This document shows positions 4,208 to 20,992 of a DNA stretch of 59,148 bases, piece by piece. Within the stretch, counting starts at the first letter, position 1, and each line of letters starts with the position of its first letter. Position numbers and translations under genes: made by a program. Source of the DNA: a virus. Taxonomy: Duplodnaviria; Caudoviricetes. The stretch spans positions 1 through 59,148 of IMG/VR virus record IMGVR_UViG_3300027639_000001. One strand, 5' to 3'. Under the pieces are notes generated by a model. That model saw only the letters and a program-made list of their open reading frames with translations, did not search any database and had not been told where the DNA came from.

Positions 4208-4290
4208 ATCAAGATGGATTTTTAGAATCGTTTTATTTTTATCGGTTCTGCTTTTAGCATTTATTATTTTTAGTCCATATGTGTTTTAAC

Positions 4291-4958: not shown

Positions 4959-4972
4959 ACTAGGGAGTCAAA

Positions 4973-5371
4973 ATGAAGGTGTACCGAGTTTGTCACGTTG
5001 AGAGAACTGTTATTATTGCCGGTTGGCTCATTTACAGTGGCCCCTATGTGATCGACTCCGGAGAGAATTCGGAATACTACCAGAAGGTTTGGGACATTCA
5101 CCACGAATTCCTTACCGATGGTGGTCATCCCACCCCTGATGATGAACGTCTGCCGATTCGAACTCACGAGGTTTGCGCATTCGAAAGTCTCCATCAATTG
5201 CGTAAATGGTTTACGCAAAGCTACATGGACTATTTGATGGATTGCGGAATGGTGATCCGTGAATACGATGTTGAAACCGTCAAGGCCGCTGAGCATCAGG
5301 TGTTGGTTCCGGCCGGTGAGATCCAATCAGAGGGACGTATCCTAGACTTCCTTGAGGTCTACGGCGTCTGA
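4973..5371 (+). CDS. hypothetical early protein
   Basis: GGGAG RBS; GPY...HPTP...CAFESLHQLRKWF. Confidence 0.75.
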   Translation: MKVYRVCHVERTVIIAGWLIYSGPYVIDSGENSEYYQKVWDIHHEFLTDGGHPTPDDERLPIRTHEVCAFESLHQLRKWFTQSYMDYLMDCGMVIREYDVETVKAAEHQVLVPAGEIQSEGRILDFLEVYGV

Positions 5372-5375
5372 GCCT

Positions 5376-5402
5376 GGGAGCCCCGAAAGGGGCTCTCTTT
5401 TT
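5376..5402 (+). terminator. intrinsic terminator
   Basis: GGGAGCCCC-GAAA-GGGGCTCTC followed by T run. Confidence 0.85.
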
Positions 5403-5451
5403 GTCCTCAGACATTTGCTAAAGTTAATTGTCACGATTAGGTTACAACGGC

Positions 5452-5480
5452 TTGACTCGGACGTGCTCTACGGGCATATT
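5452..5480 (+). promoter_or_regulatory. promoter P1 of tandem array
   Basis: TTGACT-17 bp-CATATT. Confidence 0.65.
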
Positions 5481-5529
5481 GGTGTCAGAACAACTCAACA
5501 CGGCACGAACCGCCCCGGGAAACCGGGAC

Positions 5530-5558
5530 TTGACAGCCTTACGGCTAGCGGGTAGGTT
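5530..5558 (+). promoter_or_regulatory. promoter P2 of tandem array
   Basis: TTGACA-17 bp-TAGGTT. Confidence 0.8.
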
Positions 5559-5649
5559 CGAGTCATCAAATTCCATAGGGTAGTCAAGTGGGAGCGACAA
5601 GGGTCTACGTGGTCGCGAGAGTCCCCACCACGACAGGGAAACACTACAC

Positions 5650-5678
5650 TTGACAAACCCAACGGAACGCGATAAGGT
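5650..5678 (+). promoter_or_regulatory. promoter P3 of tandem array
   Basis: TTGACA-17 bp-TAAGGT. Confidence 0.8.
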
Positions 5679-5720
5679 TCCACCACAACAACTAAATATC
5701 CGGTAAGCGAAAACAGCCGC

Positions 5721-5749
5721 TTGACACACCGGAACGAAGTTGCTAAGCT
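5721..5749 (+). promoter_or_regulatory. promoter P4 of tandem array
   Basis: TTGACA-17 bp-TAAGCT. Confidence 0.8.
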
Positions 5750-5817
5750 TCAAAGGCCAACACGGGAAACCGGAAAGGAACCCCCGCGATACGGGTTCTG
5801 GGCCACCTGATAGACGA

Positions 5818-5831
5818 TGATCTTTGAGAAC
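5818..5831 (+). promoter_or_regulatory. rRNA-type boxA antitermination site
   Basis: TGATCTTTGAGAAC resembles Gram-positive rrn boxA; downstream of P4 and of GC-rich hairpins. Confidence 0.65.
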
Positions 5832-5840
5832 CGAATATCA

Positions 5841-6034
5841 GCCCTCCTAGTCGGGAGATGACTAGGGGCGTACGGGTAGCTAACCTGCGAGGGGACCCGC
5901 CTAGTACGTTGCCTCCGTGATGCAAGCAACCGGGCAAATTGTGAGACAGTTGGGTTAGACACTGTTGCCGCAATGATGAGATTCTAGGTTGAGCCTCGCT
6001 CCCACTCATCTAGCAAGGTCATTAAAACCCAACT
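5841..6034 (+). ncRNA. candidate structured leader RNA
   Basis: non-coding; helices CCTAGTC/GACTAGG, GTTGC/GCAAC, AGTTGGGTT/AACCCAACT, GATGAG/CTCATC. Confidence 0.45.
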
Positions 6035-6040
6035 TTAAAA

Positions 6041-6097
6041 TTCTCTAGTAGCTTTTTTGGCAGGCAATAATTGCTTGCCTTTATCTCTACTAGAGGA
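6041..6097 (+). promoter_or_regulatory. intergenic hairpin, putative RNase III site
   Basis: CTCTAGTAG...TT-GGCAGGCAA-TAA-TTGCTTGCC-TT...CTACTAGAG; RBS at 3' foot. Confidence 0.55.
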
Positions 6098-6103
6098 GAG
6101 AAA

Positions 6104-6496
6104 ATGTCTAAGTTCACTGGTAAGCGTCACCACGTTGCCCCCGGGAATGGATTTCACCCGAACAACACCTACCAGGAAATGACCGATGGTCTGCATTCCG
6201 ATGGTGTGAGTGTTTGGTCTATCTCTCAGTACCCGCTAGTTGAGTGCAAGGCAAAGAAAAAGACCTGGACTGACGAATACGGTCAGGCATGCGAAAGCTT
6301 GGAGCGCTGTTCTTACAAGAGCTGTTCGGCATTGGAGGATGAACCCGTGAAGGTTCGTCACGAGAACTACTTTACTACCTGGGCTGACTACGAGAAGAAC
6401 GAGTGTACTAGGTGCGGTTGGGGTCCGAAGGATCACGGGCACGACTGGGACAAGGGACAGGACTACTGCGTGTACCTGCGTGCTGGTGAGAGCTAA
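6104..6496 (+). CDS. hypothetical early protein, Cys/His-rich
   Basis: GAGGAG RBS before ATG 6104; GC3-rich codons. Confidence 0.75.
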   Translation: MSKFTGKRHHVAPGNGFHPNNTYQEMTDGLHSDGVSVWSISQYPLVECKAKKKTWTDEYGQACESLERCSYKSCSALEDEPVKVRHENYFTTWADYEKNECTRCGWGPKDHGHDWDKGQDYCVYLRAGES

Positions 6497-6504
6497 GCAA
6501 GGCT

Positions 6505-6546
6505 GGGCAGAATGGTTGAACAAGGGTTCGATTCCCTTGCTGCTCA
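6505..6546 (+). ncRNA. mini tRNA-like element 1 (acceptor-like stem + D-loop-like AATGGTT + T-arm, no anticodon arm)
   Basis: GGGCAG-AATGGTT-GAA-CAAGGG-TTCGATT-CCCTTG-CTGCTC. Confidence 0.7.
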
Positions 6547-6584
6547 CGCGGAGAGATAGGGGAGTGAAGTACGATAAGGCATAG

Positions 6585-6830
6585 TGGCCGGACTCGTCCC
6601 TAGCAGGAAACGGACCACCTTCACAAAATTACCCGGTGATAAATGAGCTATAGGCGAAACACCGAATTGTCTCACGTCAACTACCTGATGGTAATAGGGT
6701 TGGAAAGGTTGACTACATAGGAAAAAGCACTGTGGAGTCGTTTGCACCACAATGTGGAATTGTGGAAGACTGAGAAGCGTAAGGTGCTAATTCGCCTATA
6801 TTGAATGAGTCGGTAACCGAGTATCGGCCA
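6585..6830 (+). ncRNA. candidate ~250-nt structured ncRNA
   Basis: nested helices TGGCCGGACTCG/CGAGTATCGGCCA, TATAGGCGAA/TTCGCCTATA, GTCAAC/GTTGAC, AGCAC/GTGCT; no credible ORF. Confidence 0.55.
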
Positions 6831-6876
6831 TTGAGGGGTCACAAATAAACAAAAGCCCCTCTTCTTAGGAGTCGCA

Positions 6877-7065
6877 ATGCAATTCGATTTGGTTGATTCC
6901 AGCCTTTGTGATCATGATCGTGATATATGTCATGATTGCAAAACGACTTGTCGGATTTGTGACGGAAGATTCTCTTCGCTTCAAGCATTGGATGACCATG
7001 TGGCTCTAATGCATGAGCTTAATGAAGAGGATTGTAAGTATTGTGGTCGACCCTTTGGTCACTAA
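6877..7065 (+). CDS. small Zn-finger-like protein
   Basis: AGGAG RBS; CxxC...HxxxxH (C2H2-like) plus extra CxxC. Confidence 0.65.
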   Translation: MQFDLVDSSLCDHDRDICHDCKTTCRICDGRFSSLQALDDHVALMHELNEEDCKYCGRPFGH

Positions 7066-7069
7066 TTGT

Positions 7070-7153
7070 AAGGCATAGTCCCCTTAGTACACCCGATGAA
7101 TAGAGATCAGGCGCGATCCTTTGGGGACTCGGTTCGATTCCGGTTAATGCCTT
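7070..7153 (+). ncRNA. divergent tRNA-like element
   Basis: AAGGCAT/ATGCCTT closing stem, AGTCCCC/GGGGACT arm, CGG-TTCGATT-CCG T-loop. Confidence 0.4.
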
Positions 7154-7215
7154 TGTTGGTACAAGGCTTGCCCTTGTACCGGCATGGGTGTTCCAACCCA
7201 ATCGAAAGGATGATC

Positions 7216-7464
7216 ATGTTTACCCTTGCAAATATCGAGTCCTGTCGTGAAGACCTTCAGGACGCAATGAATGCCCTTGGTGAAGCCGTTGAGAGCTTCC
7301 GAGAGGATGAGATCTCCGAGTCTGCGGTAGATGAGTGCTGGGAGACTCTTTCTCAGGCCCTGGTGGCTCTGAGGGGCATGCTAGGGGCTAGGGTGGCAGA
7401 CGAAGACGCCACCTGTCAGCAAGCACGAGACATGCTGAATATGTATGCTGGGCTGAACGTCTAG
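7216..7464 (+). CDS. acidic helical hypothetical protein
   Basis: GAAAGG RBS before ATG 7216. Confidence 0.7.
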   Translation: MFTLANIESCREDLQDAMNALGEAVESFREDEISESAVDECWETLSQALVALRGMLGARVADEDATCQQARDMLNMYAGLNV

Positions 7465-7507
7465 AGTGATATTGGTGCTAGATTTGTCTAGCACCTTTAT
7501 GGCTCTA
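7462..7507 (+). promoter_or_regulatory. intergenic hairpin, putative RNase III site
   Basis: TAGAGT-G-ATA-TT-GGTGCTAGA-loop-TCTAGCACC-TT-TAT-G-GCTCTA. Confidence 0.6.
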
Positions 7508-7522
7508 TGAGAGGATGCCGCA

Positions 7523-7819
7523 ATGAAGACTGTTCCTGTTTCTATGAGCGCTCGAATGTTGGACCTGTTTTACCCGGAATGGTGGATGTTTATCAACACC
7601 GAAACGCTTGACATTAACGATTGCGAGTTGTGCATTCTTGGACAACTTTACGATGGTGTTGCTGGATATTGGTCGGGATATGATTACTTCACCGATTTTT
7701 ACCGGCGTAGCATTGATTGGACAGTAAAGTACAACTTCAACATTCACTTCAACGATCGCGACATTGATCACCTCAATGCCTTGTGGCTGAATGAGATTTA
7801 CAAGCGTGTGAACGCTTAG
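7523..7819 (+). CDS. hypothetical protein, paralog family B
   Basis: GAGGA RBS; CILGQLY...ALWLNEI..R.NA shared with the next gene. Confidence 0.75.
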   Translation: MKTVPVSMSARMLDLFYPEWWMFINTETLDINDCELCILGQLYDGVAGYWSGYDYFTDFYRRSIDWTVKYNFNIHFNDRDIDHLNALWLNEIYKRVNA

Positions 7820-7825
7820 AATTCA

Positions 7826-7865
7826 GGGCGAATGGTTATTGATAGGTTCGATTCCTATCCGCCCG
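7826..7865 (+). ncRNA. mini tRNA-like element 2
   Basis: GGGCG-AATGGTT-ATT-GATAGG-TTCGATT-CCTATC-CGCCC. Confidence 0.7.
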
Positions 7866-7911
7866 CTAGAGCAATTAACTTGCTCGAATTCCATTCAATG
7901 GAAGGAATAAG

Positions 7912-8235
7912 ATGAAGCACAATGTCAAATTGGGCGCTCGGCTAATGGATATCTTCCGGCCAGGATGGTACCGGGAAATAGAGCGTCAACATTTCGACAT
8001 GGCGTTGGGTTGGGATTGCATTCTTGGTCAACTCTACAAGCGGCAGGCTTGGGGGTGTCAGGGAGTGCTTAACGGTTATGAATATTTCATGAATGCATAT
8101 GGTCGCTCAATGAACTGGGCCACAAAATATGGTTTCATGATTCCCTTAGGTACTCCAACAAGGGATTGTGAAGAGGAATACAAGTATCTCACCGCTTTGT
8201 GGTTGAATGAAATTCATGACCGCTTGAATGCTTAA
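7912..8235 (+). CDS. hypothetical protein, paralog family B
   Basis: AAGGA RBS; clear paralog of 7523-7819. Confidence 0.75.
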   Translation: MKHNVKLGARLMDIFRPGWYREIERQHFDMALGWDCILGQLYKRQAWGCQGVLNGYEYFMNAYGRSMNWATKYGFMIPLGTPTRDCEEEYKYLTALWLNEIHDRLNA

Positions 8236-8242
8236 TTGAATA

Positions 8243-8305
8243 GAGGTAAATGGTTGGGTGAGCATCCTAGGACACCCGAAAGGTTCGATTCCTTTCTACC
8301 TCGCC
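8243..8305 (+). ncRNA. mini tRNA-like element 3 (with inserted arm)
   Basis: GAGGTA-AATGGTT-[GGGTG..CACCC]-GAAAGG-TTCGATT-CCTTTC-TACCTC-GCC. Confidence 0.7.
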
Positions 8306-8345
8306 GGGGCTAATTGCCCTTATACCACCAATGAAAGGAAATAGA

Positions 8346-8531
8346 ATGTTTGTTATCAAGACCCTGAACCCGGACACCGGCCGTATGCGGAACTTCCGGG
8401 AGTGCAAGACGTGGGGTCACGCCAAGGTGGTTGTTGCCAAGCTGACCGGTGCAGTTGAGGTTAAGCAGGGCAAGGAACTGTTTTTCAAGCGGGACAAGAA
8501 CGGCGTTGTTTCGGTCGACCTTTTCAACTAA
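8346..8531 (+). CDS. small basic hypothetical protein
   Basis: GAAAGGA RBS; strongly biased codons. Confidence 0.7.
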   Translation: MFVIKTLNPDTGRMRNFRECKTWGHAKVVVAKLTGAVEVKQGKELFFKRDKNGVVSVDLFN

Positions 8532-8540
8532 GGGGTAGTC

Positions 8541-8870
8541 ATGGAATTGTTCACCAAGAAAATGGGTTGGTGGGTTCTCCGCGACATTCTGAAGGAAAGG
8601 AAAGAGTTTAAGAATTACAGCAAATCATTTCGCGGTTCTGCCGATGTTCCGATGAGTATTAGCAGCATGGGAACATGGTTGGAAGACGGGGAACTGAAGC
8701 GACTGAATGAATATCTTTCCAAAAAGCTCATTGATTACATCGTGTGGAGTTACAATACTCCGCTCTATGTTCATTGTGGTGGATTTTGGATTGAAGTAGA
8801 GCACCGAAGCAATTCAAAGACCACCATGTACCACCGTGGTCAAATGCAGACTGCTGTCAGTCAGCTTTAG
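8541..8870 (+). CDS. hypothetical protein
   Basis: AAGGGG RBS; YIVWSYNTP...SKTT..H motif. Confidence 0.7.
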   Translation: MELFTKKMGWWVLRDILKERKEFKNYSKSFRGSADVPMSISSMGTWLEDGELKRLNEYLSKKLIDYIVWSYNTPLYVHCGGFWIEVEHRSNSKTTMYHRGQMQTAVSQL

Positions 8871-8913
8871 TTAGTTTGGTTGCCGACTTGTTCGGCAACC
8901 TTGCTAGCCAAAG
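8865..8913 (+). promoter_or_regulatory. intergenic hairpin, putative RNase III site
   Basis: CTTTAGTTAGT-TT-GGTTGCCGA-loop-TCGGCAACC-TT-GCTAGCCAAAG. Confidence 0.6.
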
Positions 8914-8941
8914 TGGCTAAATAAAATAAGGGAGAATAACC

Positions 8942-9478
8942 ATGTCTGAGTTTCAGCCTGTCGTTGTCAACGTGACCAACCTGGACGAACTTAAGGCGCT
9001 TGCCGCGCGGGTCGGTGTTACCTGGCCCAAGGCTGGTGTGCACCCCAAGAACAAGGTTGTCTTTGAGGCTACCAAGCAGGGCATCTTTGTGAACATGAGC
9101 AACTACCAGAGCATTTCTAAGCCTAAGGCGGCTGCTGAGAAGTTTGTGGAGATCACCGCCGTGGCTGGTGGTAAGCGCTACTCTGTGGTTGCCAGTGTGT
9201 CCGAGGTTCGAGAGGCGAACGGCCTTACCGGCAAGCGAGGTGCTACGTCCAAGAACGTCTTTCGTGAGTTCGCACTGAACCAGTGGGGTCTGTCTGAGGC
9301 TGACCTTGTGAGCGGTGACGTTCAGATCTGGCCTGCGGAGGCACCGAAGGATGAGGCTAAGCCCTCTGAGACGGTTGCTAAGCCGCGTAAGGCTGCCCGC
9401 AAGGGTAAGGACACCAGCAAGGCGTCTGAGGCTGCTAGCGAGCCTGTGAAGGCTGAGAACGACACCGCGTCTGAGTAG
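8942..9478 (+). CDS. probable highly expressed DNA-binding protein (weak Lsr2-like motif, K/A-rich tail)
   Basis: GGGAG RBS; SEVREANGLTGKRG; AKPRKAARK tail; strong codon bias. Confidence 0.5.
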   Translation: MSEFQPVVVNVTNLDELKALAARVGVTWPKAGVHPKNKVVFEATKQGIFVNMSNYQSISKPKAAAEKFVEITAVAGGKRYSVVASVSEVREANGLTGKRGATSKNVFREFALNQWGLSEADLVSGDVQIWPAEAPKDEAKPSETVAKPRKAARKGKDTSKASEAASEPVKAENDTASE

Positions 9479-9524
9479 TCAATGTGGTGGGGGTCTATGA
9501 CCCCCACCTATTTGAACACTTAGA
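9470..9524 (+). promoter_or_regulatory. intergenic hairpin, putative RNase III site
   Basis: TCTGAGT..TCAA..GGTGGGGGTC-TAT-GACCCCCACC..TTGA..ACTTAGA. Confidence 0.55.
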
Positions 9525-9535
9525 TTGGAGCTAAT

Positions 9536-9721
9536 ATGCAAGATTTTGCAATGGGAATGCTTTCAGCATCTTTGGGATGGTTTTTCGGAACAATGATTTT
9601 TTGGCATGGAATTCATGCTAACGAAAAGCCGGTGTTTGTTCCTGATGATGCCAATCAAGTATGTGTTGTCACACCGGCTAAGAATGGCCAGGGTGACGGA
9701 TATGATTGTAAGGGCCTTTAA
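9536..9721 (+). CDS. small membrane protein
   Basis: GGAG RBS; N-terminal hydrophobic helix. Confidence 0.6.
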   Translation: MQDFAMGMLSASLGWFFGTMIFWHGIHANEKPVFVPDDANQVCVVTPAKNGQGDGYDCKGL

Positions 9722-9873
9722 ATGGGATGGATTTTAGTCTATATCCAAATACCATGTTTGCTTGCCTCGCTTCACTCTGGATTTATGTACGGTAAAACGA
9801 GCAAAAGGCAGTGGCAAAAACAACAGATATTTTTCGCTGCTGTTGTTCTATTGATCACTGTGCTAATCATTAT

Positions 9874-9923
9874 CTTCTAGTTTTGTTGGTGCACAAATAT
9901 TTGTGCACCTTCATTCCTAGAAG
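9874..9923 (+). promoter_or_regulatory. intergenic hairpin, putative RNase III site
   Basis: CTTCTAG..G-TT-GGTGCACAAA-TA-TTTGTGCACC-TT-C..CTAGAAG. Confidence 0.55.
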
Positions 9924-9932
9924 GGAAATGAA

Positions 9933-10220
9933 ATGAACATTCGAAATCTCATTCAGGAAATGAACGAATTGGCTCAGGAAGCTCGAAATGGTGACGGTTA
10001 TCGTCGCTATAATCAGCGCAAGCTGTGCGAAAAGTTCGAAAAACTGAGTAGTGAACTTGGAGGTTTGGGCGACAAGCTTCGTGAGGCTATTCACGATGAG
10101 CGAATGAAGGCCGATACTCGTTATTACTTGGATGGACAGAACGGAACTCTCAAGGCTCATGCCGATGCTGAGAGGAATACGGATTCATTGATCAATCAGC
10201 TATCGAATTTCGACCAGTGA
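9933..10220 (+). CDS. hypothetical coiled-coil protein
   Basis: AAGGG RBS; ORF. Confidence 0.7.
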   Translation: MNIRNLIQEMNELAQEARNGDGYRRYNQRKLCEKFEKLSSELGGLGDKLREAIHDERMKADTRYYLDGQNGTLKAHADAERNTDSLINQLSNFDQ

Positions 10221-10294
10221 GAGGCATTATCGTCGGAGTAGCAATTGGTATCGTTTTGTGGTGCATAATTCTATTGATCGTTTTTGGAGGATAA
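10217..10294 (+). CDS. 25-aa single-pass membrane peptide
   Basis: GTGA overlap with upstream stop; MRGIIVGVAIGIVLWCIILLIVFGG; abuts next ATG. Confidence 0.55.
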   Translation: MRGIIVGVAIGIVLWCIILLIVFGG

Positions 10295-10528
10295 ATGCGA
10301 TTCATTATCACTGAAGTTGTTAGTTCTAATCCGGAAGATAATCGGAGCACTGTTCCCACTCCGGATTTTGAGCATGTCTCAGATCTTGTCCATTGGCTTT
10401 CTACCGAGGGTGGCGGAGCTGGACAGGAGTATTGCCGCTCCGTAGCTGACTGGTACCTAGCGGGTGCTCATGGCTCGCTCAATGTCCCTAACGGTCCCTC
10501 TTGGCATGATGTGTGGGTGAAAGCTTAG
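10295..10528 (+). CDS. hypothetical protein, paralog family C
   Basis: GGAGG RBS; MRFI...GP...DVW..A shared with the next gene. Confidence 0.7.
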   Translation: MRFIITEVVSSNPEDNRSTVPTPDFEHVSDLVHWLSTEGGGAGQEYCRSVADWYLAGAHGSLNVPNGPSWHDVWVKA

Positions 10529-10588
10529 TTGCTAGTTTGCCCGGTGTGCTGCTGAAATATGCGTACACCGGGTTTGCTGGCCATTAAG
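10524..10588 (+). promoter_or_regulatory. intergenic hairpin, putative RNase III site
   Basis: CTTAGTTGCTAGT-TT-GCCCGGTGTGC...GTACACCGGGT-TT-GCTGGCCATTAAG. Confidence 0.6.
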
Positions 10589-10606
10589 TTCAATTAGGGA
10601 GAAACA

Positions 10607-10831
10607 ATGCGTTTTATTGTTAGGGAATTTAGGGATGGCGATAGTGTTCCTCTGTATACCGATCATTCAGAGGAAATTGTTAATGCGGCAGAACTAATTG
10701 ATTATCTCGTTTTGCAAGGTGCAGATTCAAAGTATATGGCCACCGTGCTTGAATGGCATTTTAAGGGCCACAAGAACGATTTGCTTGTTGGTGATGGTCC
10801 CGGCTATTGCGATGTTTGGCAGGTTGCCTAG
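10607..10831 (+). CDS. hypothetical protein, paralog family C
   Basis: GGGAG RBS; paralog of 10295-10528. Confidence 0.7.
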   Translation: MRFIVREFRDGDSVPLYTDHSEEIVNAAELIDYLVLQGADSKYMATVLEWHFKGHKNDLLVGDGPGYCDVWQVA

Positions 10832-10877
10832 TTATTAGCTTGCTAGCTGTCTTGTACAGCTAGCTTGCTGATTGCTA
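10829..10877 (+). promoter_or_regulatory. intergenic hairpin, putative RNase III site
   Basis: TAGTTATTAGC-TT-GCTAGCTGT-loop-ACAGCTAGC-TT-GCTGATTGCTA, then AAGGAG. Confidence 0.6.
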
Positions 10878-11117
10878 AGGAGACTAATATGGAAGGATAT
10901 AAACGCTGGCAATTGGATCTGCCTAAGCGTTCAGAATTCAATTCTGAGCAGGAATGGTTAGACGCAGTTGAACGCCATTTAAATGAAGACTAAATCAGCT
11001 ATAATTAGTCCAGGTGAATAAAATGGATGAATGGTTTAGGAATTACGAACGTAGAAACGATGCACAAGTTGTTTCCCCCGATTTTCTCATTGATGAAGAT
11101 TGGAGGCTAGGCGCAGA

Positions 11118-11423
11118 ATGAAACTGTGGGTTGACGATGAACGCGACCCGGTCCAACACAACCATGATGGTTGGGTCTGGGCTAAGACATGCTCAGAGGC
11201 CCTAGAAGCGCTTAGGTCTGGTGAGGTAACACATCTCAGCCTTGACCATGATCTAGGCGGCACAGAGACTGTCAGACCGGTTGTGCTTTGGCTCTGTGAC
11301 AATCTCGCCTGGCCAGGATTTGTTAAAACGCATAGCATGAATCCTGTTGGTCGTGAATGGATCAACCAAATGATTGCACGTTACGGCCATTGGAATTGGG
11401 AGAACAAAAATGCAGGCACTTAA
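11118..11423 (+). CDS. cyclic-phosphate-processing receiver-domain protein
   Basis: MKLWVDDER, LSLDHDLG, HSMNPVG motifs. Confidence 0.8.
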   Translation: MKLWVDDERDPVQHNHDGWVWAKTCSEALEALRSGEVTHLSLDHDLGGTETVRPVVLWLCDNLAWPGFVKTHSMNPVGREWINQMIARYGHWNWENKNAGT

Positions 11424-11649
11424 GATTGAGGCACCAAACGATTCGTCTAGAAATCCCCGGCGAGGCTGGATTGTTTACAATGAGAGCGGCAATATTGTCT
11501 CATTTGTAAATGAGAATTATAATTCAAACGCCCTGAAGAGAGCTTATCCGTTTATTCGAATGACGGATTTGGGCTGCATTCCAACAACCGCTAAATTTTA
11601 CAATCAAATGATGAGGGATTATGCACACAGAGTGCCACCTGTGCAATAA
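11410..11649 (+). CDS. hypothetical protein
   Basis: GGGAG RBS; ND...NPRRGWIV motif. Confidence 0.6.
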   Translation: MQALKIEAPNDSSRNPRRGWIVYNESGNIVSFVNENYNSNALKRAYPFIRMTDLGCIPTTAKFYNQMMRDYAHRVPPVQ

Positions 11650-11809
11650 ACCAAAAGAACAAACTCCGATCACCAGGCTGGATAGCATTATTCATGACCG
11701 GCAAGAAAAATTGGATGCTATTCTGACAGAAATCGAAAGGCTTAGGCAAGAGGCTCAGGCAGTAGGAAAAGAGCTAGGAATCTTTAGACATATTCGATAT
11801 GGTAGTTAA
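11621..11809 (+). CDS. small coiled-coil protein
   Basis: ORF with CxxC and heptad pattern. Confidence 0.5.
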   Translation: MHTECHLCNKPKEQTPITRLDSIIHDRQEKLDAILTEIERLRQEAQAVGKELGIFRHIRYGS

Positions 11810-11859
11810 ACGTTGATTACGCTAGCCTCAACTGAGGCTAGCTAAATGAGTGTTTAACT
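11804..11859 (+). promoter_or_regulatory. intergenic hairpin, putative RNase III site
   Basis: TTGATTACGCTA...TAGCTAAATGAGTG shared exactly with 13184-13238. Confidence 0.6.
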
Positions 11860-12198
11860 CGGGAGGAAAAATGATTTGTGACGCATGTGAATATGGTGAA
11901 GAGGATGGGCCTCTTTCGGGTTACCGAGGTGGAGCATATTTTCACGACCATTGTGCAGAAGAATTGGGCATTTCTGAAAGCGAAATGAACTAGTTCCATT
12001 GTTCAATAAAATTATCCGAGGTGACTAATCATGCTGGCAAGCAGACGAAACCGAGCAGTGTGGAACGTTGACAACCCAATGGACGACGACGGGTTTTACA
12101 TGTACGCCTGGGACACCAAGAGCAAGGCACCCCGTCGAAGGGCTCTCAGGCGTAAGGAGAACAACGCTTGGAGGCAGGAAGCTCGAAGGTACCTGAGC

Positions 12199-12249
12199 TG
12201 AGGATTGATCTTGCTAGGCTCGATCTGAGCCTAGTTTGATGGGTTCTCA
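12199..12249 (+). promoter_or_regulatory. intergenic hairpin, putative RNase III site
   Basis: TGAGGATT-G-ATC-TT-GCTAGGCTC-loop-GAGCCTAGT-TT-GAT-G-GGTTCTCA. Confidence 0.6.
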
Positions 12250-12265
12250 ACGAAAGGATGACCCA

Positions 12266-12715
12266 ATGAAGATAGAAGATCTTGATCTGACACAGGTAAA
12301 CATTAGTGCGGTTCAAGAGTGGATTAATGCTTTGCGTTCTGGCAATTACCGGCAGGGCAAAAATGCTCTTGCTAGAAGCACAGCAGAAGGAACCGAGTAT
12401 TGTTGCATGGGAGTTGCATGCGAAATTGCTCCCTTTGAAGATATTAAGGGTTTGTTTACTACAAACTTGCTCTTTCTTTATGATAATGAAAATATGGTGA
12501 TGCCTCTTAGAGTCAGGCAATGGCTTTTTGGTAAACAGGAGGTTGTGCTAGGGAATCCTTACATCACTAGTATGGATGTTGAGCATGAGTTTTTCGACAA
12601 TGAATCTTCTCTTGCCGAACTGAATGATGCTCACGGCTGGACCTTTGATGAAATTGCTGAGGTAATTGAACAGGCAATTTTGGAGCCTGCCAAACTGGCA
12701 CAAGCCAAAAGTTAG
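12266..12715 (+). CDS. hypothetical phage protein
   Basis: WINALRSGNYRQG..L, CCMGVAC, LAELND..GWTFDEIA motifs. Confidence 0.75.
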   Translation: MKIEDLDLTQVNISAVQEWINALRSGNYRQGKNALARSTAEGTEYCCMGVACEIAPFEDIKGLFTTNLLFLYDNENMVMPLRVRQWLFGKQEVVLGNPYITSMDVEHEFFDNESSLAELNDAHGWTFDEIAEVIEQAILEPAKLAQAKS

Positions 12716-12846
12716 ATATGTTTAGTGTGATTGCAGCTCGATTTGATCGAGCTGCTTTCGGGTTAAACGTGCCTAGAATAATTTCGGGGTACAATCACCC
12801 ACATGTTTATTCAAACAAAGTGGTAGTGACGATTATAGGGGTAGGA

Positions 12847-13035
12847 ATGTATTGGCAATGCTTTCTTTTGACGCTCATTTTTGCGGGTGCATCATTGACT
12901 GCTAGTTTATCAACAGGATCATTTAAGGAAGGTGGATACTTTATGGGCATTGTGCTAATGATTGCTACCTTCTTTATGAGTTCCGCCGCCATGATGCAAC
13001 TATTGCACATTCTGAAGCTTACTTTTAAGGGGTAG
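12847..13035 (+). CDS. two-helix membrane protein
   Basis: GGGG/AGGA upstream; two hydrophobic segments. Confidence 0.55.
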   Translation: MYWQCFLLTLIFAGASLTASLSTGSFKEGGYFMGIVLMIATFFMSSAAMMQLLHILKLTFKG

Positions 13036-13183
13036 CAATGGAAACGGCTATCGCTGTTGCTGCTAATGGGCATTTGATGGAATACGAAGTCAAGCCCAAT
13101 GGTGAATACGTTGAATGGTCGGCAAGGTGTGTTAAAGAATGCCGGGCTTGTCGTGATGGTGAATATCTGCCGGATTGGTAAAA

Positions 13184-13238
13184 CTGATCATTGATTACGC
13201 TACCCCCAATCCCGGGGGGTAGCTAAATGAGTGATTAG
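13184..13238 (+). promoter_or_regulatory. intergenic hairpin, putative RNase III site
   Basis: CTGATCATT-G-ATT-AC-GCTACCCCC...GGGGGTAGC-TA-AAT-G-AGTGATTAG. Confidence 0.6.
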
Positions 13239-13245
13239 GAACAAA

Positions 13246-13458
13246 ATGCATTATGTAGAACATTGGTTAGAATGCCAAGAGTGCGGAGATCGATTAAGGC
13301 TGCTTACTCAACAGCAAGCACAAATGGTAGCTCGAAATCCGTATAATTACGTTGCTTATTGTCTTAAATGTAGAAAAGATATTATCAAACAATTAGAAAG
13401 AGAAGAATATGGCGGATTCAGCGAAGGAAATTCTTCAGAAAGAGATCGAGGTTCTTGA
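13246..13458 (+). CDS. small Zn-ribbon protein
   Basis: CQEC...CLKC. Confidence 0.6.
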   Translation: MHYVEHWLECQECGDRLRLLTQQQAQMVARNPYNYVAYCLKCRKDIIKQLEREEYGGFSEGNSSERDRGS

Positions 13459-13580
13459 TGGAGAAATTAAAATGTATGAGCGTGAAATTAACGGATTGCA
13501 TGCTAAAATTCGTTCAAATCAAGATTTAATTAGTATTTGTCGTCAAGCTAAGGATGCACTGAGCAGGGCGCTCAAGGCTC

Positions 13581-13904
13581 ATGGCTGAGAGCCACGCTAA
13601 CAAGATCAACGTTGTGATGCATGTCTGTACCTACCCCGTGAATAGTTCGGGCGGTACAGACGTTCTCAGCGTGCAAAGCGTACCGCTAGAGTTCGAGTCT
13701 GCACATGAGCTAGTACGCTACATGCGCGGGCAGGGAATATATAGGCCCAGCAGTTGGCCCGGTTATCAAGCGAATTGTTGGTATGACAGTAAGCTAATAA
13801 ACGGGGTGCAGAAAACAATAGTAAGAATAGAATCTACTAATAGAGAATGGCATAAGGTATGGTTAATAAACGCGGACCTAGAACGGGAAAGTGTCAGCAC
13901 ATAA
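13581..13904 (+). CDS. hypothetical protein
   Basis: 107-aa ORF at end of the rightward island. Confidence 0.55.
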   Translation: MAESHANKINVVMHVCTYPVNSSGGTDVLSVQSVPLEFESAHELVRYMRGQGIYRPSSWPGYQANCWYDSKLINGVQKTIVRIESTNREWHKVWLINADLERESVST

Positions 13905-14081
13905 AGCCCTGTAGATTAAAGCCATGTGATTTAGCATGGGAAGAGAAAGTGGATAATCTAGAGGCTGATATAGAAACATGGAATAGATGGGTTGCTGCTA
14001 AACGCAAATCTAAATAGATAGCCTATATGCGTATCGTTTATCGATATGCTTTATATGCTGAAAGACGAATAAATAAGTGTA

Positions 14082-14199
14082 ATTGCAAATATTAATTATT
14101 GCAAATTTTATTGCAAATATATCGATTTATTAAACATTTATTGCAAATAATAGCGATTTATTGCGCATATTGCTTAATTTACGCAATATTATTGCATAT
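14082..14199. repeat. cluster of ATTGC(AAAT) direct repeats in very AT-rich DNA
   Basis: ATTGCAAAT at ~14082, 14098, 14111, 14141; variants at ~14160, 14191. Confidence 0.65.
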
Positions 14200-14562
14200 C
14201 TACAATAGATATATTCAAAGGAGAATCAGAGTGAATAAGAGATTGATTATTGGAAGGGTCGGAGCGGGATGTATGTCTATGTTTCTATTTCTAGTACTAG
14301 TATTTGTATTGTGTATTAGCATATGGCTTATTGGTACATGGATGATATCATGGATTGTTGTATAACCCCCGCTTTTAACACATATTATATATTAATTATA
14401 TATATATTTGTTTTTGTATTCTCTTATTCATTCTCTATTACATAGTCTATGCTATATAGGCATTGGCATATCAAACATGCACCGGCGCACGATGCATTAA
14501 ATTTTCCATATTTCATTTCTCTTATTTATTCTGATATATATATTTGCATATAAAAGACATAC

Positions 14563-18041: not shown

Positions 18042-18219
18042 TCTACTACTATTCCCTTAAATATTGTTCCTGCTCTGGACAATTCAACATCAGTGACATT
18101 GATTTTACACACATTTGCAATACCTAAAACAAGTCTAAGCTGTTTTCCGATATAATCTTGCTTTTCTTCTTCGCTCATTCTTGGAAGAGCACTATAGGCA
18201 ATAAAAAATGAAGTTTCCA

Positions 18220-18492
18220 TTATCGTGAAAAATTCCTAAATACAGTTGTGACGTAATCACTTAATGCTGTTAAGTTTTCTTTTTCATCTTCCCAGACAAT
18301 AACTGTTCCGCCGTTATGTCCATGAATTGCTTCAACATCATTCATATTCCTATAAAAGGCAATAGAAGTGAATTCAGAATTCCAATTCATTGATGCTGGA
18401 CCACCCGGAAAAAATTCAATTCCTTCGGCAACTCGTCCAGTTCCCGAAATTCCTGTTTCGTCGTTGTTTCGTTGCAAATAAAATTTTCTCAA
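18220..18492 (-). CDS. conserved hypothetical phage protein
   Basis: GAGGAG RBS before TTG; F.L.R..D.TGISGTG.VAEG..F...HGH.G.T motif. Confidence 0.7.
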   Translation of the reverse strand: MRKFYLQRNNDETGISGTGRVAEGIEFFPGGPASMNWNSEFTSIAFYRNMNDVEAIHGHNGGTVIVWEDEKENLTALSDYVTTVFRNFSR

Positions 18493-18582
18493 AAAATCTC
18501 CTCGTATGTGTTGTGCATGTACCCGCATGTCACAGCTCCGCAGTCGTAAAAGGCCGCTTTGATCTTTCTTACAGGTCAGACC

Positions 18583-18692
18583 CTGTGACAGCTGGTGTAA
18601 CAGGACGTGTAACAAGGGGTGTAACAAGCCCATACTACCACATTTAGAGGGGTGTGACAACTGGTGTGACACATAAAAAAGCAGGGGTGACA
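18583..18692 (-). repeat. clt: clt-like locus: 8-bp direct repeats (TGTYACAC on the traB strand)
   Basis: + strand (G/C)TGTRACA at 18583, 18595, 18607, 18619 (12-bp period), 18652, 18664; variant at 18685; immediately downstream of traB. Confidence 0.75.
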
Positions 18693-18704
18693 ACTCACCC
18701 CTGC
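18675..18704 (-). terminator. intrinsic terminator after traB
   Basis: GCAGGGGTGA-GTTG-TCACCCCTGC-TTTTTT on the minus strand. Confidence 0.85.
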
Positions 18705-18706
18705 CC

Positions 18707-20599
18707 TTAAATTATAAGAAATAAACTATCTTCTTCCGCCAATTTTCCTTCTTCTACCATTCTCCCCAATTGCCTATGAAGCCAAGCTCTACTCCGAGGA
18801 ATCTTAATAACAACATCTTTAAGATCCGGAGCAGAAAATGATCTAATACCCTTGGATTTTAATTCTTCAATCTTATCCATAAGAATTTGTTTTGCCTCTT
18901 CTGGAGTTACCTCATTTTGAGGGGCAAAGTGAAAATTATCTTCATCGGCAATAACTTCTGGTTCATCGTCTATTGATGCTTCAAATTCATTTTCACTATC
19001 ATCAATTTTAGAATTAAACTCTGCATCTAAGGCAACTGATGTCATTGTATCGTCATCATCTTCCTCTTCGATATCTTCTTGTTCTTGAGGTACAGAATGG
19101 TATAGGTCACCTAATGCACCCAATGTGATTTCATCAACTTCAGGGTTGATGGCATCTTTTGCCAACTGTTTCATTAGCTCTGGCTCCATTTTGAATGTTC
19201 TTAATGGGGTTGTCCATTTGCTTTGATCGATGCCGGGGGCAACTAGATATGCATATCCTTGTCTTGCATTTCTCCATACTGCCGGATTAGCACCTGCATC
19301 TAATACTTCATCAGGAAGTGCAAATGATGCATCTCCTATATCCGCAACTCCAAAACAAAGAACTGAGGAGAATTGTGCACGAGCCTGGGTATCTACAGAT
19401 CCATGGTGTGCTCTTTGTAAAGAGGCTGAAATTTGAATTCCTGTAGATCTTGCCGTTTCCATCATTTTTACGAATGCTGGATTATTGGCAATAAGTCCCG
19501 AAGCTTCTTCAAGATGCAAATGGATAAATGTTAATCCACATCCCTTTACCCACTTATCTAGATCTTTTTTACCTAGATAGTCCGCTCGTGCTTTAATTAA
19601 GTTTTTAAATTTAACAAATAACGCCGCTGCTGTTGCTTCATCTTCGATGAACCAGTCAATTCCCGGACGAACATTATTCATTGTTTGAGATCCCTTAACG
19701 GTATCTATGACCCAAGAAACAGCATCATTTCTCTTGAACATTTCTGCAAAGATAATCTGTGCAGCCATCGATTTACCAGACCCATTCATACCCTGAATAA
19801 GCAAATGGCTTGCGCCAAGATCTCTAGTTTGAAGTGGTAAAAGTGCTGGCTCTCTATCTTCATAAATACCTATTTGCAGAGGATCGGCAATCGACTTATA
19901 ATCGTTTGCATTTGGATCATATAGTGTTTCTTGCTTTAATGCATCTCCTTTAACTACAACAATTTCTGCTTTGGATGCATTGTCAGGGTCAGGGGTAATT
20001 CTTACATTATTTATTGCTACTCCCATAAGACTAGCAAGCTTACCTTTAATACCCTGTAAGTCAGAGGCCGTATTCTTACCCCGGCGGAGTTGAATTCTAC
20101 CTCTCACCTTATTTTTAGTTTGCTCTATAAATTTTAGTCTTGCTCCCTCAAGATTATTATCTTTGAAGAAATCGGCTATCGGATCATCTCTTTCTGATGG
20201 TTTAATGCTAGTTCTTAACGACCAACTTCCGGCCAAAATAGATCCAACTAATAACCATATATCTATAAGAGGATGATTAAAGGGTCCCAGAGCAGTTGCA
20301 GCTACTAGCCATGATCCGGCCATTATCATTGTCATAACAGAGTGTACTCTGCCCAAATCTCTTCTGGATCTGGATATTATCCAGGTAAAGACAGACAATA
20401 TTGCTACACCAATTCCAAGACCCAACAATATTAATTTAAGGTGGGGATTGTGTCCCCAAAATCCATAGAATAGAATCCCCACCAAGAAGCAAGCTATCAT
20501 AACTAAAAACGGCTGAAGCCCAACTAGAGTTTTTGATGTTTCTCTTTCTATAACTCTTCGCTTAACCGCATTCATTCTCTTGCTCATATTATCACTCAC
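18707..20599 (-). CDS. traB: TraB-like FtsK/SpoIIIE-family conjugative DNA translocase
   Basis: 4 N-terminal TM helices, Walker A GMNGSGKS, Walker B HLHLEEA, SLQRA, acidic linker, C-terminal wHTH RSRAWLHRQL..MVEEG.L as in Streptomyces plasmid TraB. Confidence 0.85.
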   Translation of the reverse strand: MSDNMSKRMNAVKRRVIERETSKTLVGLQPFLVMIACFLVGILFYGFWGHNPHLKLILLGLGIGVAILSVFTWIISRSRRDLGRVHSVMTMIMAGSWLVAATALGPFNHPLIDIWLLVGSILAGSWSLRTSIKPSERDDPIADFFKDNNLEGARLKFIEQTKNKVRGRIQLRRGKNTASDLQGIKGKLASLMGVAINNVRITPDPDNASKAEIVVVKGDALKQETLYDPNANDYKSIADPLQIGIYEDREPALLPLQTRDLGASHLLIQGMNGSGKSMAAQIIFAEMFKRNDAVSWVIDTVKGSQTMNNVRPGIDWFIEDEATAAALFVKFKNLIKARADYLGKKDLDKWVKGCGLTFIHLHLEEASGLIANNPAFVKMMETARSTGIQISASLQRAHHGSVDTQARAQFSSVLCFGVADIGDASFALPDEVLDAGANPAVWRNARQGYAYLVAPGIDQSKWTTPLRTFKMEPELMKQLAKDAINPEVDEITLGALGDLYHSVPQEQEDIEEEDDDDTMTSVALDAEFNSKIDDSENEFEASIDDEPEVIADEDNFHFAPQNEVTPEEAKQILMDKIEELKSKGIRSFSAPDLKDVVIKIPRSRAWLHRQLGRMVEEGKLAEEDSLFLII

Positions 20600-20937
20600 T
20601 GAAACTTAAATTTTTTAACAGGTGCTCTCTTTTTAACATGAGCCATTTCTGTCTCATATTTAGCTTGAAATGTAGCCCAAGCTCTCATTGCAAGACCGCC
20701 ATTTAGTCGCATTTGATCTGCCAATTTGACTAATGGAATTCTTACCATTTTTGCATCATGTCTTGCTGTTGATCTAGGTAAAGCCGCAAGCAATTCATAC
20801 ACTTGATCTGAAGCATAGTGTATTTCGAGATACAGATCTCGACACATATCTCTAACCTTCATGCAGTATTCTTGCAAACCCTTGCTTGAGCTAACATCTA
20901 TGTCTTCAAGTTCTGAAGCTATTTTAGATCTTGACAT
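20596..20937 (-). CDS. traA: TraA-like plasmid transfer accessory protein
   Basis: helical protein coupled to traB by GTGA overlap; A..AWATFQ..YE.E resembles actinomycete plasmid TraA. Confidence 0.6.
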   Translation of the reverse strand: MSRSKIASELEDIDVSSSKGLQEYCMKVRDMCRDLYLEIHYASDQVYELLAALPRSTARHDAKMVRIPLVKLADQMRLNGGLAMRAWATFQAKYETEMAHVKKRAPVKKFKFQ

Positions 20938-20963: not shown

Positions 20964-20992
20964 ATTGTAACATGTTAAAGAGGGGTTGACAA
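20964..20992 (-). promoter_or_regulatory. promoter of traAB
   Basis: TTGTCA-17 bp-TACAAT, then AAGGAGG RBS. Confidence 0.75.

What the first reader, a model, noticed from the sequence alone, without database searches (positions are those of the whole stretch)
18583..18692. clt-like 8-mer array with 12-bp periodicity
(G/C)TGTRACA occurs at 18583, 18595, 18607 and 18619, then at 18652 and 18664, all in one orientation with 4-bp variable spacers. A variant sits in the terminator stem and an inverted copy lies at ~18528. Oriented 8-mers next to traB fit TraB recognition sequences, and their retention argues the translocase still has a cis target on the phage genome.
Basis: partly seen in the sequence, partly recalled or inferred. 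Interest (0 to 1): 0.8.

Follow-up and report, generated by a model that had tools for sequence, protein, structure and literature searches.

The report
Phage-borne TraB recognition repeat array
A tight cluster of short, equally spaced DNA words just behind a plasmid-type DNA-pump gene in a soil phage is most likely that pump's own docking site, which suggests the phage genome can be handled like a conjugative Streptomyces plasmid.

Summary
On the gene (minus) strand there are six TGTYACA(C/G) words: 18671-18664 and 18659-18652, then four at 12-bp steps from 18626 to 18583. A TTGTCACC variant sits in the terminator and an inverted copy at 18528-18534. Six same-strand copies within 100 bp compares with at most 3 in 1000 random sequences.

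The gene ahead is a real TraB homologue: NCBIfam plasmid_TraB E 1.7e-132, FtsK-motor fold and a C-terminal winged helix. It is preceded by a TraA-like gene.

All 10 related phage loci carry one TGT[C/T/A]AC(C) array downstream of traB. In 16 of 17 high-GC actinomycete loci, repeat arrays (mostly TGACACC) start at the traB stop codon. TGACACC is the word that the purified Tra protein of plasmid pWTY27 footprints and that transfer requires (PMC3583192).

I read the array as a clt-like TraB recognition site (confidence 0.65). It is interleaved with the promoter of the next operon, so it probably also gates transcription. Binding and transfer are untested.

This scan has noted similar phage-borne TraB/clt arrays on other DNA. 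New here are the low-GC (37%) phage of roughly 130 kb (inferred), the word variant and the promoter embedding.

The parts
20964..20992 (-). Promoter-like site ahead of traA-traB: TTGTCA, 17-bp spacer, TG-extended TACAAT. Its -35 and spacer (TTGTCAACCCCTCT) resemble the promoter-like site inside the array.
20596..20937 (-). TraA-like gene, 113 aa. Its stop overlaps the traB start.
   Evidence: NCBIfam NF041213 plasmid_TraA, E 7.1e-10, 39.2 bits (cut-off 80), profile positions 46-155 of 165
18707..20599 (-). TraB-like membrane-anchored FtsK-family dsDNA translocase, 630 aa. It has hydrophobic N-terminal helices, Walker A GMNGSGKS, an acidic disordered linker (507-558) and a C-terminal winged helix (566-630) whose helix 3 is RSRAWLHRQLGRM.
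   Evidence: NF041214 plasmid_TraB E 1.7e-132, 443 bits, cut-off 800. 28-31% identity over 94% to Streptomyces TraB. 27.7% identity to pWTY27 TraB. AF2 model pLDDT 88.4. FtsK motor 6t8g E 1.1e-15. Protein sequence.
18677..18708 (-). Intrinsic terminator of traB. Its loop and 3' arm hold the variant word TTGTCACC (18693-18686), which is the consensus word of the related phages.
18664..18671 (-). Copy 1, TGTCACAC
18652..18659 (-). Copy 2, TGTCACAC. With the preceding T it supplies the -35 hexamer TTGTCA.
18632..18660 (-). Promoter-like site between the two groups of copies: TTGTCA, 17-bp spacer, TG-extended TAGTAT.
   Evidence: This is a consensus match only, not evidence of function.
18583..18626 (-). 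Copies 3-6 at exact 12-bp steps: TGTTACAC x3 (18626-18619, 18614-18607, 18602-18595) and TGTCACAG (18590-18583).
18572..18579 (-). CTGACCTG element closing the array. It is conserved inside or at the end of arrays of related phages and of high-GC traB loci.
18540..18548 (-). TACGACTGC, a conserved element of unknown role in the leader of the next operon.
18528..18534 (+). Inverted copy, TGTCACA on the + strand.
18220..18492 (-). First gene of the next operon, 90 aa from TTG at 18492 after the RBS GAGGAG (18503-18498). It belongs to phrog_7499, function unknown.

Best explanation
The array is the cis-acting recognition locus (clt-like set of TraB recognition sequences) of the phage's own TraB-type DNA translocase.

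Proposed mechanism:
- The C-terminal winged helix of TraB (helix 3, RSRAWLHRQL) reads the oriented 8-mer TGTYACAC.
- Six phased copies plus one terminator variant and one inverted copy give high-avidity, oriented loading of the membrane-anchored hexameric pump. Loading happens at one unique place in the phage genome.
- The pump can then move double-stranded phage DNA, as Streptomyces TraB moves plasmids.
- Copy 2 supplies the -35 of the promoter-like site of the next operon, and four copies lie just downstream of it. Occupancy by TraB should therefore also shut or gate that operon.

Shown here: the array is real, non-random and unique in the record. The translocase is homologous to TraB. The gene-plus-array arrangement and related words are conserved from phages to actinomycete plasmids.

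Inferred: binding by this TraB, translocation of phage DNA, and the regulatory side effect.
For: 1. Non-random and unique. Six same-strand copies lie in 100 bp, against at most 3 in 1000 random sequences. Only 2 further TGTYACAC occur in 59 kb.

2. The neighbour is a TraB homologue with a TraA homologue ahead of it. It has an FtsK motor fold and a confident C-terminal winged helix.

3. Conservation in phages.
- An unbiased 6-mer cluster scan puts a TGT[C/T/A]AC/GTCACC array first in 9 of 10 related phage loci; in L011 it ties at 4 copies with an unrelated 6-mer.
- Arrays hold 4-9 forward copies by the word pattern.
- Of 60 spacings, 33 are 10-13 bp and 15 are 20-23 bp.
- In 5 relatives' whole records, TGTCACC clusters only at this place.

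4. Conservation far beyond phages. 16 of 17 high-GC traB loci have arrays at the traB stop, and 12 use (C)TGACAC(C). L028 uses CGTCACAC, which matches the window's word at 7 of 8 positions.

5. Experimental anchor. In pWTY27 the purified Tra protein footprints the region holding all four TGACACC copies, and deleting the clt lowers transfer about 1000-fold (PMC3583192, passages). The copies are seen at the traB stop in L035.

6. The whole cis region looks inherited with traB. CTGACCT(G/T) lies in the arrays of the window, of 4 distinct related phage records and of 11 high-GC loci (L018-L020, L022-L028).

7. The constant neighbour is traB, not the downstream gene. The first downstream genes of 9 phage loci fall into 4 unrelated families.

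8. The helix-3 core RSRAW is conserved, and the residues after it differ by word class. H/Y/R-K/R goes with TGTNAC, and S or T with TGACAC, TGACGC or CCGCACA.

9. Natural variation. A variant strain (run X4) changes two TGTTACAC copies to TGTCACAC, at the one degenerate position, and moves a flank towards TTGT.
Against: - There is no binding, transfer or expression evidence for this phage.
- In all 5 loci scanned, a copy of the word is the -35 of the promoter-like site. The traA promoter has a similar -35. An ordinary operator or promoter role could therefore explain part of the conservation.
- TraA is as constant a neighbour as TraB, and its function is unknown.
- The protein scores below the NCBIfam equivalog cut-off (443 bits against 800).
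- The winged helix matches only generic winged-helix structures (Foldseek E >= 0.035; VIA Z <= 9.2). Pfam FtsK_gamma is not detected.
- The helix-3/word correspondence rests on a few clades and was not tested with independent contrasts.
- The X4 differences come from one contig at depth 4.2.
- The host is unknown, and the 37% GC is far from that of Streptomyces.
Confidence: 0.65

Rival explanations
1. The array is an operator array for a transcription regulator other than TraB (TraA, another phage protein or a host factor). The phased words bracket the promoter of the next operon and serve only to repress or time it.
For: - The promoter-like site has its -35 in copy 2, and four copies lie just downstream.
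- In 5 of 5 loci scanned, a direct or inverted copy is the -35.
- The traA promoter shares TTGTCA..CCCCTCT.
- TraA-like genes always accompany traB.
Against: - The position of the predicted promoter relative to the direct copies is not fixed. It lies between the two groups in the window and L011, and after the whole array in L012, L013 and L017.
- The downstream genes are of 4 unrelated families.
- No other DNA-binding family was found among the 16 neighbouring ORFs that I scanned.
- In pWTY27 the translocase alone binds the related word (PMC3583192).
Confidence: 0.2
2. The array is a set of replication-origin iterons or a partition centromere, where phased direct repeats load a Rep or ParR/ParB-type protein.
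For: Phased direct repeats at about one helical turn with a short A/T-rich gap resemble iterons and type II centromeres. That resemblance is recalled, not tested here. The array occurs once per record.
Against: - No Rep, ParA, ParB or ParR family hit was found among the flanking ORFs.
- GC skew changes sign at about 14 kb and 26 kb, where gene orientation switches, and not at 18.6 kb.
- The same kind of array is an experimentally defined transfer locus, separate from the replication iterons, in pWTY27.
- A better origin-like repeat zone lies at 14080-14200.
Confidence: 0.07
3. The array is an RNA element. The four downstream copies act in the 5' leader, as a structure or as binding sites for an RNA-binding protein.
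For: If the promoter-like site at 18660-18632 is used, copies 3-6 are transcribed.
Against: - The leader folds no better than shuffles (z = -0.38; 58 of 200 shuffles fold at least as well).
- There is no Rfam family hit.
- Two copies and the terminator variant lie upstream of the promoter-like site.
- In L012, L013 and L017 the whole direct array precedes the promoter-like site.
Confidence: 0.04

Closest known systems
clt of Streptomyces sp. Y27 plasmid pWTY27 with its Tra protein (called TraA in PMC3583192, TraB in RefSeq)
   Same: Both have direct 7-8-bp words in gene orientation, starting at the 3' end of the FtsK-like tra gene, plus an inverted copy. The word TGACACC matches the relatives' TGTCACC at 6 of 7 positions and the window's TGTCACA at 5 of 7. 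The translocases are homologous (27.7% identity over 87%, E 4e-54). Binding and the need for transfer were shown for pWTY27 (passages; sequence).
   Different: pWTY27 is a 14-kb high-GC plasmid, whereas this is a 37%-GC tailed phage of at least 59 kb. Here the copies sit at strict 12-bp steps, in two groups around a promoter-like site. No DC2 (CCCGCCC) word is present. Nothing has been tested experimentally here.
pSVH1 TraB and its TRS/clt (Streptomyces venezuelae)
   Same: An 8-bp repeated word is read by helix alpha-3 of a C-terminal winged helix of a hexameric, membrane-associated FtsK-like pump (statements in PMC3583192, PMC4170104 and PMC4447253, passages read). The domain order is the same in the model.
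   Different: The pSVH1 word (GACCCGGA, recalled; the primary paper was not held) is unrelated. pSVH1 was not among the loci I examined.
pJV1 clt (Streptomyces phaeochromogenes)
   Same: Direct repeats CCGCACA(C/G)(C/G) start at the tra stop codon (passage; seen in L036). The translocase is homologous (31.4% identity).
   Different: The word differs, the element is a rolling-circle plasmid, and the repeats abut each other rather than sitting at 12-bp steps.
FtsK/KOPS and SpoIIIE/SRS
   Same: Oriented 8-bp words are read by a winged helix at the C-terminus of an FtsK-family pump. The motor fold is shared.
   Different: KOPS and SRS are dispersed and strand-skewed over a chromosome (recalled). 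Here there is one cluster and only 2 stray copies in 59 kb. Pfam FtsK_gamma is not detected in this protein.
Streptomyces plasmid-phage pZL12
   Same: It is an element that forms virions and also needs a major tra gene for conjugal transfer (title in the reference list of PMC4487206; one sentence in PMC3583192).
   Different: pZL12 is a high-GC plasmid-prophage of about 90 kb (size recalled). The paper itself was not held, so I could not see whether a clt was defined.

Membership tests
clt / TraB recognition sequence array of actinomycete conjugative elements | Lies at or just after the 3' end of a traB (FtsK-like tra) gene | tested here: met
   The array starts 36 bp after the stop of a gene that matches NF041214 plasmid_TraB (E 1.7e-132) and Streptomyces TraB proteins.
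clt / TraB recognition sequence array of actinomycete conjugative elements | Several direct copies of a 7-9-bp word, with inverted repeat(s) | tested here: met
   There are six direct copies, one variant and one inverted copy. The clustering is beyond chance.
clt / TraB recognition sequence array of actinomycete conjugative elements | Conserved next to orthologous traB genes, with words related to experimentally bound ones | tested here: met
   Arrays are present in 10 of 10 phage loci and 16 of 17 high-GC loci. TGACACC of pWTY27 matches the relatives' word at 6 of 7 positions.
clt / TraB recognition sequence array of actinomycete conjugative elements | Bound by the C-terminal winged helix (helix alpha-3) of the cognate TraB | not testable with these tools
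   The domain is present and confidently modelled. No protein-DNA assay or co-fold was available.
clt / TraB recognition sequence array of actinomycete conjugative elements | Required in cis for TraB-dependent DNA transfer | not testable with these tools
   This needs a mobilisation assay. The host is unknown.
TraB (NCBIfam NF041214 plasmid_TraB, equivalog) | Score at or above the curated cut-off of 800 bits | tested here: not met
   The score is 443.1 bits over profile positions 10-625 of 639. The protein is a clear homologue but not an equivalog by NCBI's threshold.
TraB (domain architecture) | N-terminal membrane helices, FtsK-type motor and C-terminal winged helix | tested here: met
   The AF2 model has helices at 3-131 (hydrophobic by eye), a motor that matches FtsK 6t8g/2ius (E about 1e-15) and a winged helix at 566-630.
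FtsK gamma domain / KOPS-type guidance | Pfam FtsK_gamma domain in the pump | tested here: not met
   There is no PF09397 hit at E <= 1 in the window's protein, while the relatives P0066 and P0067 have one internally.
FtsK gamma domain / KOPS-type guidance | Fold of the C-terminal domain like FtsK gamma | tested here: inconclusive
   Generic winged-helix matches only. No FtsK gamma chain was among the rows listed.
FtsK gamma domain / KOPS-type guidance | Words dispersed and strand-skewed over the replicon | tested here: not met
   Five of 7 TGYACAC-type (TGTYACAC) matches lie in one 80-bp stretch. The record is estimated at only 45% complete.
Iteron origin / partition centromere | Adjacent Rep or Par protein gene | tested here: inconclusive
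   No such family was found in the 16 flanking ORFs scanned. Many of these ORFs have no family hit at all.

The most novel reading that the evidence does not exclude
A family of large (about 105-140 kb), low-GC, virion-forming soil phages keeps a complete and functional plasmid-type conjugation unit: traA, traB and the recognition array. The phage would use it to pump its own double-stranded genome, without virions, into neighbouring hyphal compartments, cells or developing spores. The same array would switch the adjacent early operon off while the DNA is being moved.
Probability: 0.25. Interest if true: 0.85.

Novelty: new variant of a known kind. Interest (0 to 1): 0.6.

Why it matters
TraB/clt is the only known conjugation system that moves double-stranded DNA with a single protein. 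It is regarded as a plasmid and AICE trait of mycelial actinomycetes.

Here the gene-plus-site unit is conserved in about 60 orthologue-bearing phage-like contigs, and the site itself was seen in all 10 loci that I could fetch. This points to a second, virion-independent route of spread or segregation for phage genomes.

It also gives a directly testable pair: a 630-aa protein and a 110-bp site.

Finally, it shows how far the TraB word can drift (TGACACC, TGTCACC, TGTYACAC) while the helix-3 core RSRAW stays the same. That is useful for predicting clt sites.

My four literature searches listed no paper describing a clt-like site in a phage. I judged this from titles and abstract starts, plus passages of five papers. 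Supplements were closed, and two primary papers were not held.

Tried and rejected
- DNA search of 3.5 kb against the phage collection gave no match. A protein search there found only Streptomyces phage Gilgamesh's FtsK-like gene, at 28.6% identity over 28% of the query.
- The small downstream protein family (phrog_7499) also occurs in a higher-GC phage without traB or an array in front of it (L010). It is therefore not tied to the array.
- RNA-structure reading of the leader: z = -0.38. There were no Rfam hits in the window and no tRNAs.
- A PDB sequence search with the winged-helix profile gave nothing below E 0.016. Foldseek with the domain model gave nothing at E <= 0.001. VIA-align gave generic winged helices only, and no FtsK gamma row was listed.
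- The pattern TTGTYANNCCC is not enriched in the window (27 matches against 23.3 expected). The extended word is therefore not a general phage promoter motif.
- TACGACTGC with 1 mismatch is not enriched window-wide.
- Sequencing runs: no RNA holder was listed. Run X3 laid no contig, and X2 covers only 18625-19000.
- The metagenome-contig scan gave only 5 loci and the genome-contig scan only 4. About 50 orthologues could therefore not be inspected.
- Complex prediction was not used, because it does not model protein-DNA pairs.

Full report
**What is there**

The window is an IMG/VR virus record of 59,148 bp. CheckV estimates it at 45% complete, and its GC is about 37%. It encodes a portal, a prohead protease, an amidase endolysin, a ribonucleotide reductase and ThyX, so it is a tailed phage.

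Genes between about 14 and 25 kb run on the minus strand. Read on that strand, the region is laid out as follows:
- The stop codon of a 630-aa gene (18709-18707).
- An intrinsic terminator (18708-18677). Its loop and 3' arm contain TTGTCACC.
- Two TGTCACAC copies (18671-18664 and 18659-18652).
- A 25-bp gap.
- Three TTGTTACAC-type copies and TGTCACAG at exact 12-bp steps (18626-18583).
- GGTCTGACCTGT.
- TACGACTGC (18548-18540).
- An inverted copy (18528-18534 on the + strand).
- GAGGAG, then a TTG start at 18492 of a 90-aa gene.

**Is it more than chance?**

TGTYACAC occurs 7 times in the window, and 5 of these are in this stretch, all on one strand. TGTYACA occurs six times within 100 bp on one strand. 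In 1000 first-order Markov sequences the largest such cluster was 3, and that happened once.

**The neighbouring genes**

The 630-aa protein has these properties:
- It matches NCBIfam plasmid_TraB over nearly the whole profile (E 1.7e-132, 443 bits). This is below the 800-bit equivalog cut-off.
- It matches named Streptomyces TraB proteins at 28-31% identity over 94% of its length.
- A tblastn search hits 54 actinomycete plasmid records, among them pWTY27 (27.7%) and pJV1 (31.4%).
- The upstream 113-aa gene, whose stop overlaps the traB start, matches plasmid_TraA weakly (E 7.1e-10, 39 bits against a cut-off of 80).

An AlphaFold2 model from 64 aligned sequences (pLDDT 88.4) shows four parts:
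- N-terminal helices to residue 131, hydrophobic by eye.
- A motor domain. It matches the FtsK motor best (6t8g, 2ius; E about 1e-15).
- A disordered acidic linker (507-558).
- A helix / short strand / helix-helix / beta-hairpin domain at 566-630.

Modelled alone (pLDDT 81.3), that last domain matches many winged-helix DNA-binding domains. The best are Z 9.2 for Stn1 WH and Z 8.4 for Fur. It matches none specifically, and Foldseek gives E >= 0.035. Pfam FtsK_gamma is not detected. Helix 3 reads RSRAWLHRQLGRM. W606 is invariant in the 64-sequence alignment, and S603 and R604 are nearly so.

**Related phages**

A homology search returned about 60 orthologues at 41-53% identity. Many sit on contigs of 105-140 kb. 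I could fetch DNA for 10 loci of this clade: L011-L017 and L021, and L030 and L031. L013 and L031 look like the same phage.
- A scan for the most repeated 6-mer in any 150-bp stretch, blind to the motif, put a TGT[C/T/A]AC/GTCACC cluster first in 9 of the 10. In L011 it tied at 4 copies with an unrelated 6-mer.
- Each array lies 0-1.4 kb downstream of traB, in gene orientation. By the word pattern it has 4-9 forward copies.
- Of 60 copy-to-copy spacings, 33 are 10-13 bp and 15 are 20-23 bp. The sites are therefore phased at about one helical turn.
- Where the array is not directly after traB, extra genes lie between them. These look HNH-like to me by eye.
- In the whole records of five relatives, TGTCACC clusters only at this locus. 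Elsewhere it occurs as singletons, at about the rate of the reversed-word control.
- The first gene after the array belongs to 4 unrelated families among 9 loci. The constant partner of the array is therefore traA-traB, not a downstream gene.

**Distant relatives and the experimental anchor**

I examined 17 high-GC (68-71%) loci with 27-32% identical TraB homologues.
- 16 have at least 4 same-strand copies of a short word at or just after the traB stop. L032 (42% GC) has none.
- 12 use (C)TGACAC(C).
- L028 uses CGTCACAC, including a stretch TTGTCACACCCCTG that matches the window's TTGTCACACCCCTC at 13 of 14 positions.
- L024 uses CCTGACGC, L037 uses TAACAC/TCACAC, and pJV1 uses CCGCACA(C/G).
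- In L019, L023 and L025 a second array sits directly before the traB start.

The pWTY27 paper (PMC3583192; I read the abstract and passages) reports three things:
- A 175-bp clt covers 16 bp of the tra gene and the adjacent DNA, and it contains four direct TGACACC repeats.
- Purified truncated Tra protein shifts this DNA and footprints the region holding all four repeats.
- Deletions in the clt lower transfer 10- to 1000-fold.

I saw those four copies at the stop codon in the plasmid sequence. The relatives' word TGTCACC differs from it at one position, and the window's TGTCACA at two. The element CTGACCT(G/T) lies within or at the end of the arrays of the window, of 4 distinct related phage records and of 11 high-GC loci (L018-L020, L022-L028). 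This suggests the whole cis region was inherited together with traB.

**Protein-word correspondence**

The helix-3 core RSRAW (RxRxW in the most distant loci) is shared. The residues after it sort with the word class:
- H/Y/R followed by K or R goes with TGT[C/T/A]AC in phages.
- S, or T in L024, goes with TGACAC, TGACGC and CCGCACA in the high-GC elements.

This is suggestive only. The classes coincide with clades, and I did not run independent contrasts.

**Natural variation**

Contigs of four soil-metagenome runs were laid on 18200-19000.
- One run is identical and may be the source.
- One variant contig (run X4, depth 4.2) has four listed differences over 18561-18838, and three fall in the array.
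- 18599 A>G and 18611 A>G convert two TGTTACAC copies to TGTCACAC. These are changes at the one degenerate position.
- 18591 G>A turns CTGTCACAG into TTGTCACAG, towards the consensus flank.

The sample is small and low-depth, but the changes preserve the word.

**Relation to transcription**

- The consensus scan finds a promoter-like site whose -35 is copy 2: TTGTCA, 17-bp spacer, TG-extended TAGTAT (18660-18632). L011 has the same arrangement.
- In L012, L013 and L017 the promoter-like site instead uses the inverted copy (GTTACA or GTGACA) as its -35 and lies after the whole direct array.
- A copy of the word is therefore the -35 in 5 of 5 loci scanned. However, the position of the promoter relative to the direct copies is not fixed. 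That fits a docking array that also interferes with transcription better than a classical operator with fixed geometry.
- The promoter ahead of traA has a similar -35 and spacer, which leaves room for autoregulation.

These are consensus matches only. No RNA data were available.

**Rivals**

- An operator for another regulator remains the main rival (0.2).
- An origin or centromere role has no supporting gene and no skew signal at this place.
- An RNA-structure role is not supported (z = -0.38; no Rfam hit).

**Comparison and novelty**

The array works like, and by position, form, conservation and word is most simply filed with, the clt/TRS loci of Streptomyces-type conjugative elements. The two defining functional features, binding by TraB and the cis requirement for transfer, could not be tested. 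It is not KOPS-like, because there is a single cluster and no dispersed skewed words.

Precedents:
- FtsK-like genes are annotated in Streptomyces phages without functional study (for example PMC11536984, passage).
- The plasmid-phage pZL12 needs a tra gene for transfer (one sentence in PMC3583192). The primary paper was not held.
- My four searches listed no description of a clt-like site in a phage.
- Within this scan, earlier agents reported similar phage-borne TraB/clt arrays on other genomes. 51 notes hold the search words, and 8 were shown. I reached pWTY27 and the CTGACACC arrays independently, before reading those notes.

New here:
- The setting: a 37%-GC soil phage, probably about 130 kb.
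- The word variant TGTYACAC.
- The strict 12-bp phasing in two groups.
- The embedding around a promoter-like site.

I rate it a new variant of a known kind, with interest 0.6.

Noticed in passing
window 14080-14200: About seven copies of a TTATTGCAAAT-like word lie in AT-rich intergenic DNA at the end of the leftward operon. It is the only other strong short-repeat cluster in the window and could be an origin or an operator.
   Followed up: partly
window 4000-14000: This stretch is GC-richer (44-48%, against 31-39% around it) and has mostly short ORFs. No tRNA and no Rfam family were found there.
   Followed up: partly
window 18540-18548; L013, L014, L016, L017, L021, L030, L031: TACGACTGC occurs once per locus, at the same place between the array and the next start codon. 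In relatives it is followed by alternating purine-pyrimidine GCGCGCAC-type tracts. Its function is unknown.
   Followed up: partly
window 18572-18579; L011, L014, L017, L030, L018-L028: CTGACCT(G/T) is conserved inside or at the end of the arrays, from low-GC phages to 70%-GC elements.
   Followed up: partly
L019 2376-2520; L023 2375-2460; L025 near 2384: Some high-GC loci carry a second CTGACACC array directly in front of the traB start, so traB is bracketed by arrays.
   Followed up: no
L018, L025, L026, L028, L033, about 550-1300: Different 6-mer arrays (CGAAGC, TGAGCG, TGAGAC, GTACCG, CGGACA; 7-8 copies each) lie 1.2-1.9 kb upstream of traB in the high-GC loci. They may be sites for other proteins of these elements.
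   Followed up: no
P0066, P0067 (771-774 aa relatives): These relatives carry an internal Pfam FtsK_gamma domain (about 558-618, E 8e-14 and 6e-12) in addition to the TraB-type C-terminal winged helix.
   Followed up: partly
L035 (pWTY27) 4136-4755: RefSeq annotates a 'phage major capsid protein' 0.8 kb after the clt of the 14-kb plasmid pWTY27.
   Followed up: no
L013, L021, L030, between traB and the array: Extra genes with HNH-like motifs (by eye) are inserted between traB and the array, leaving the array intact.
   Followed up: no
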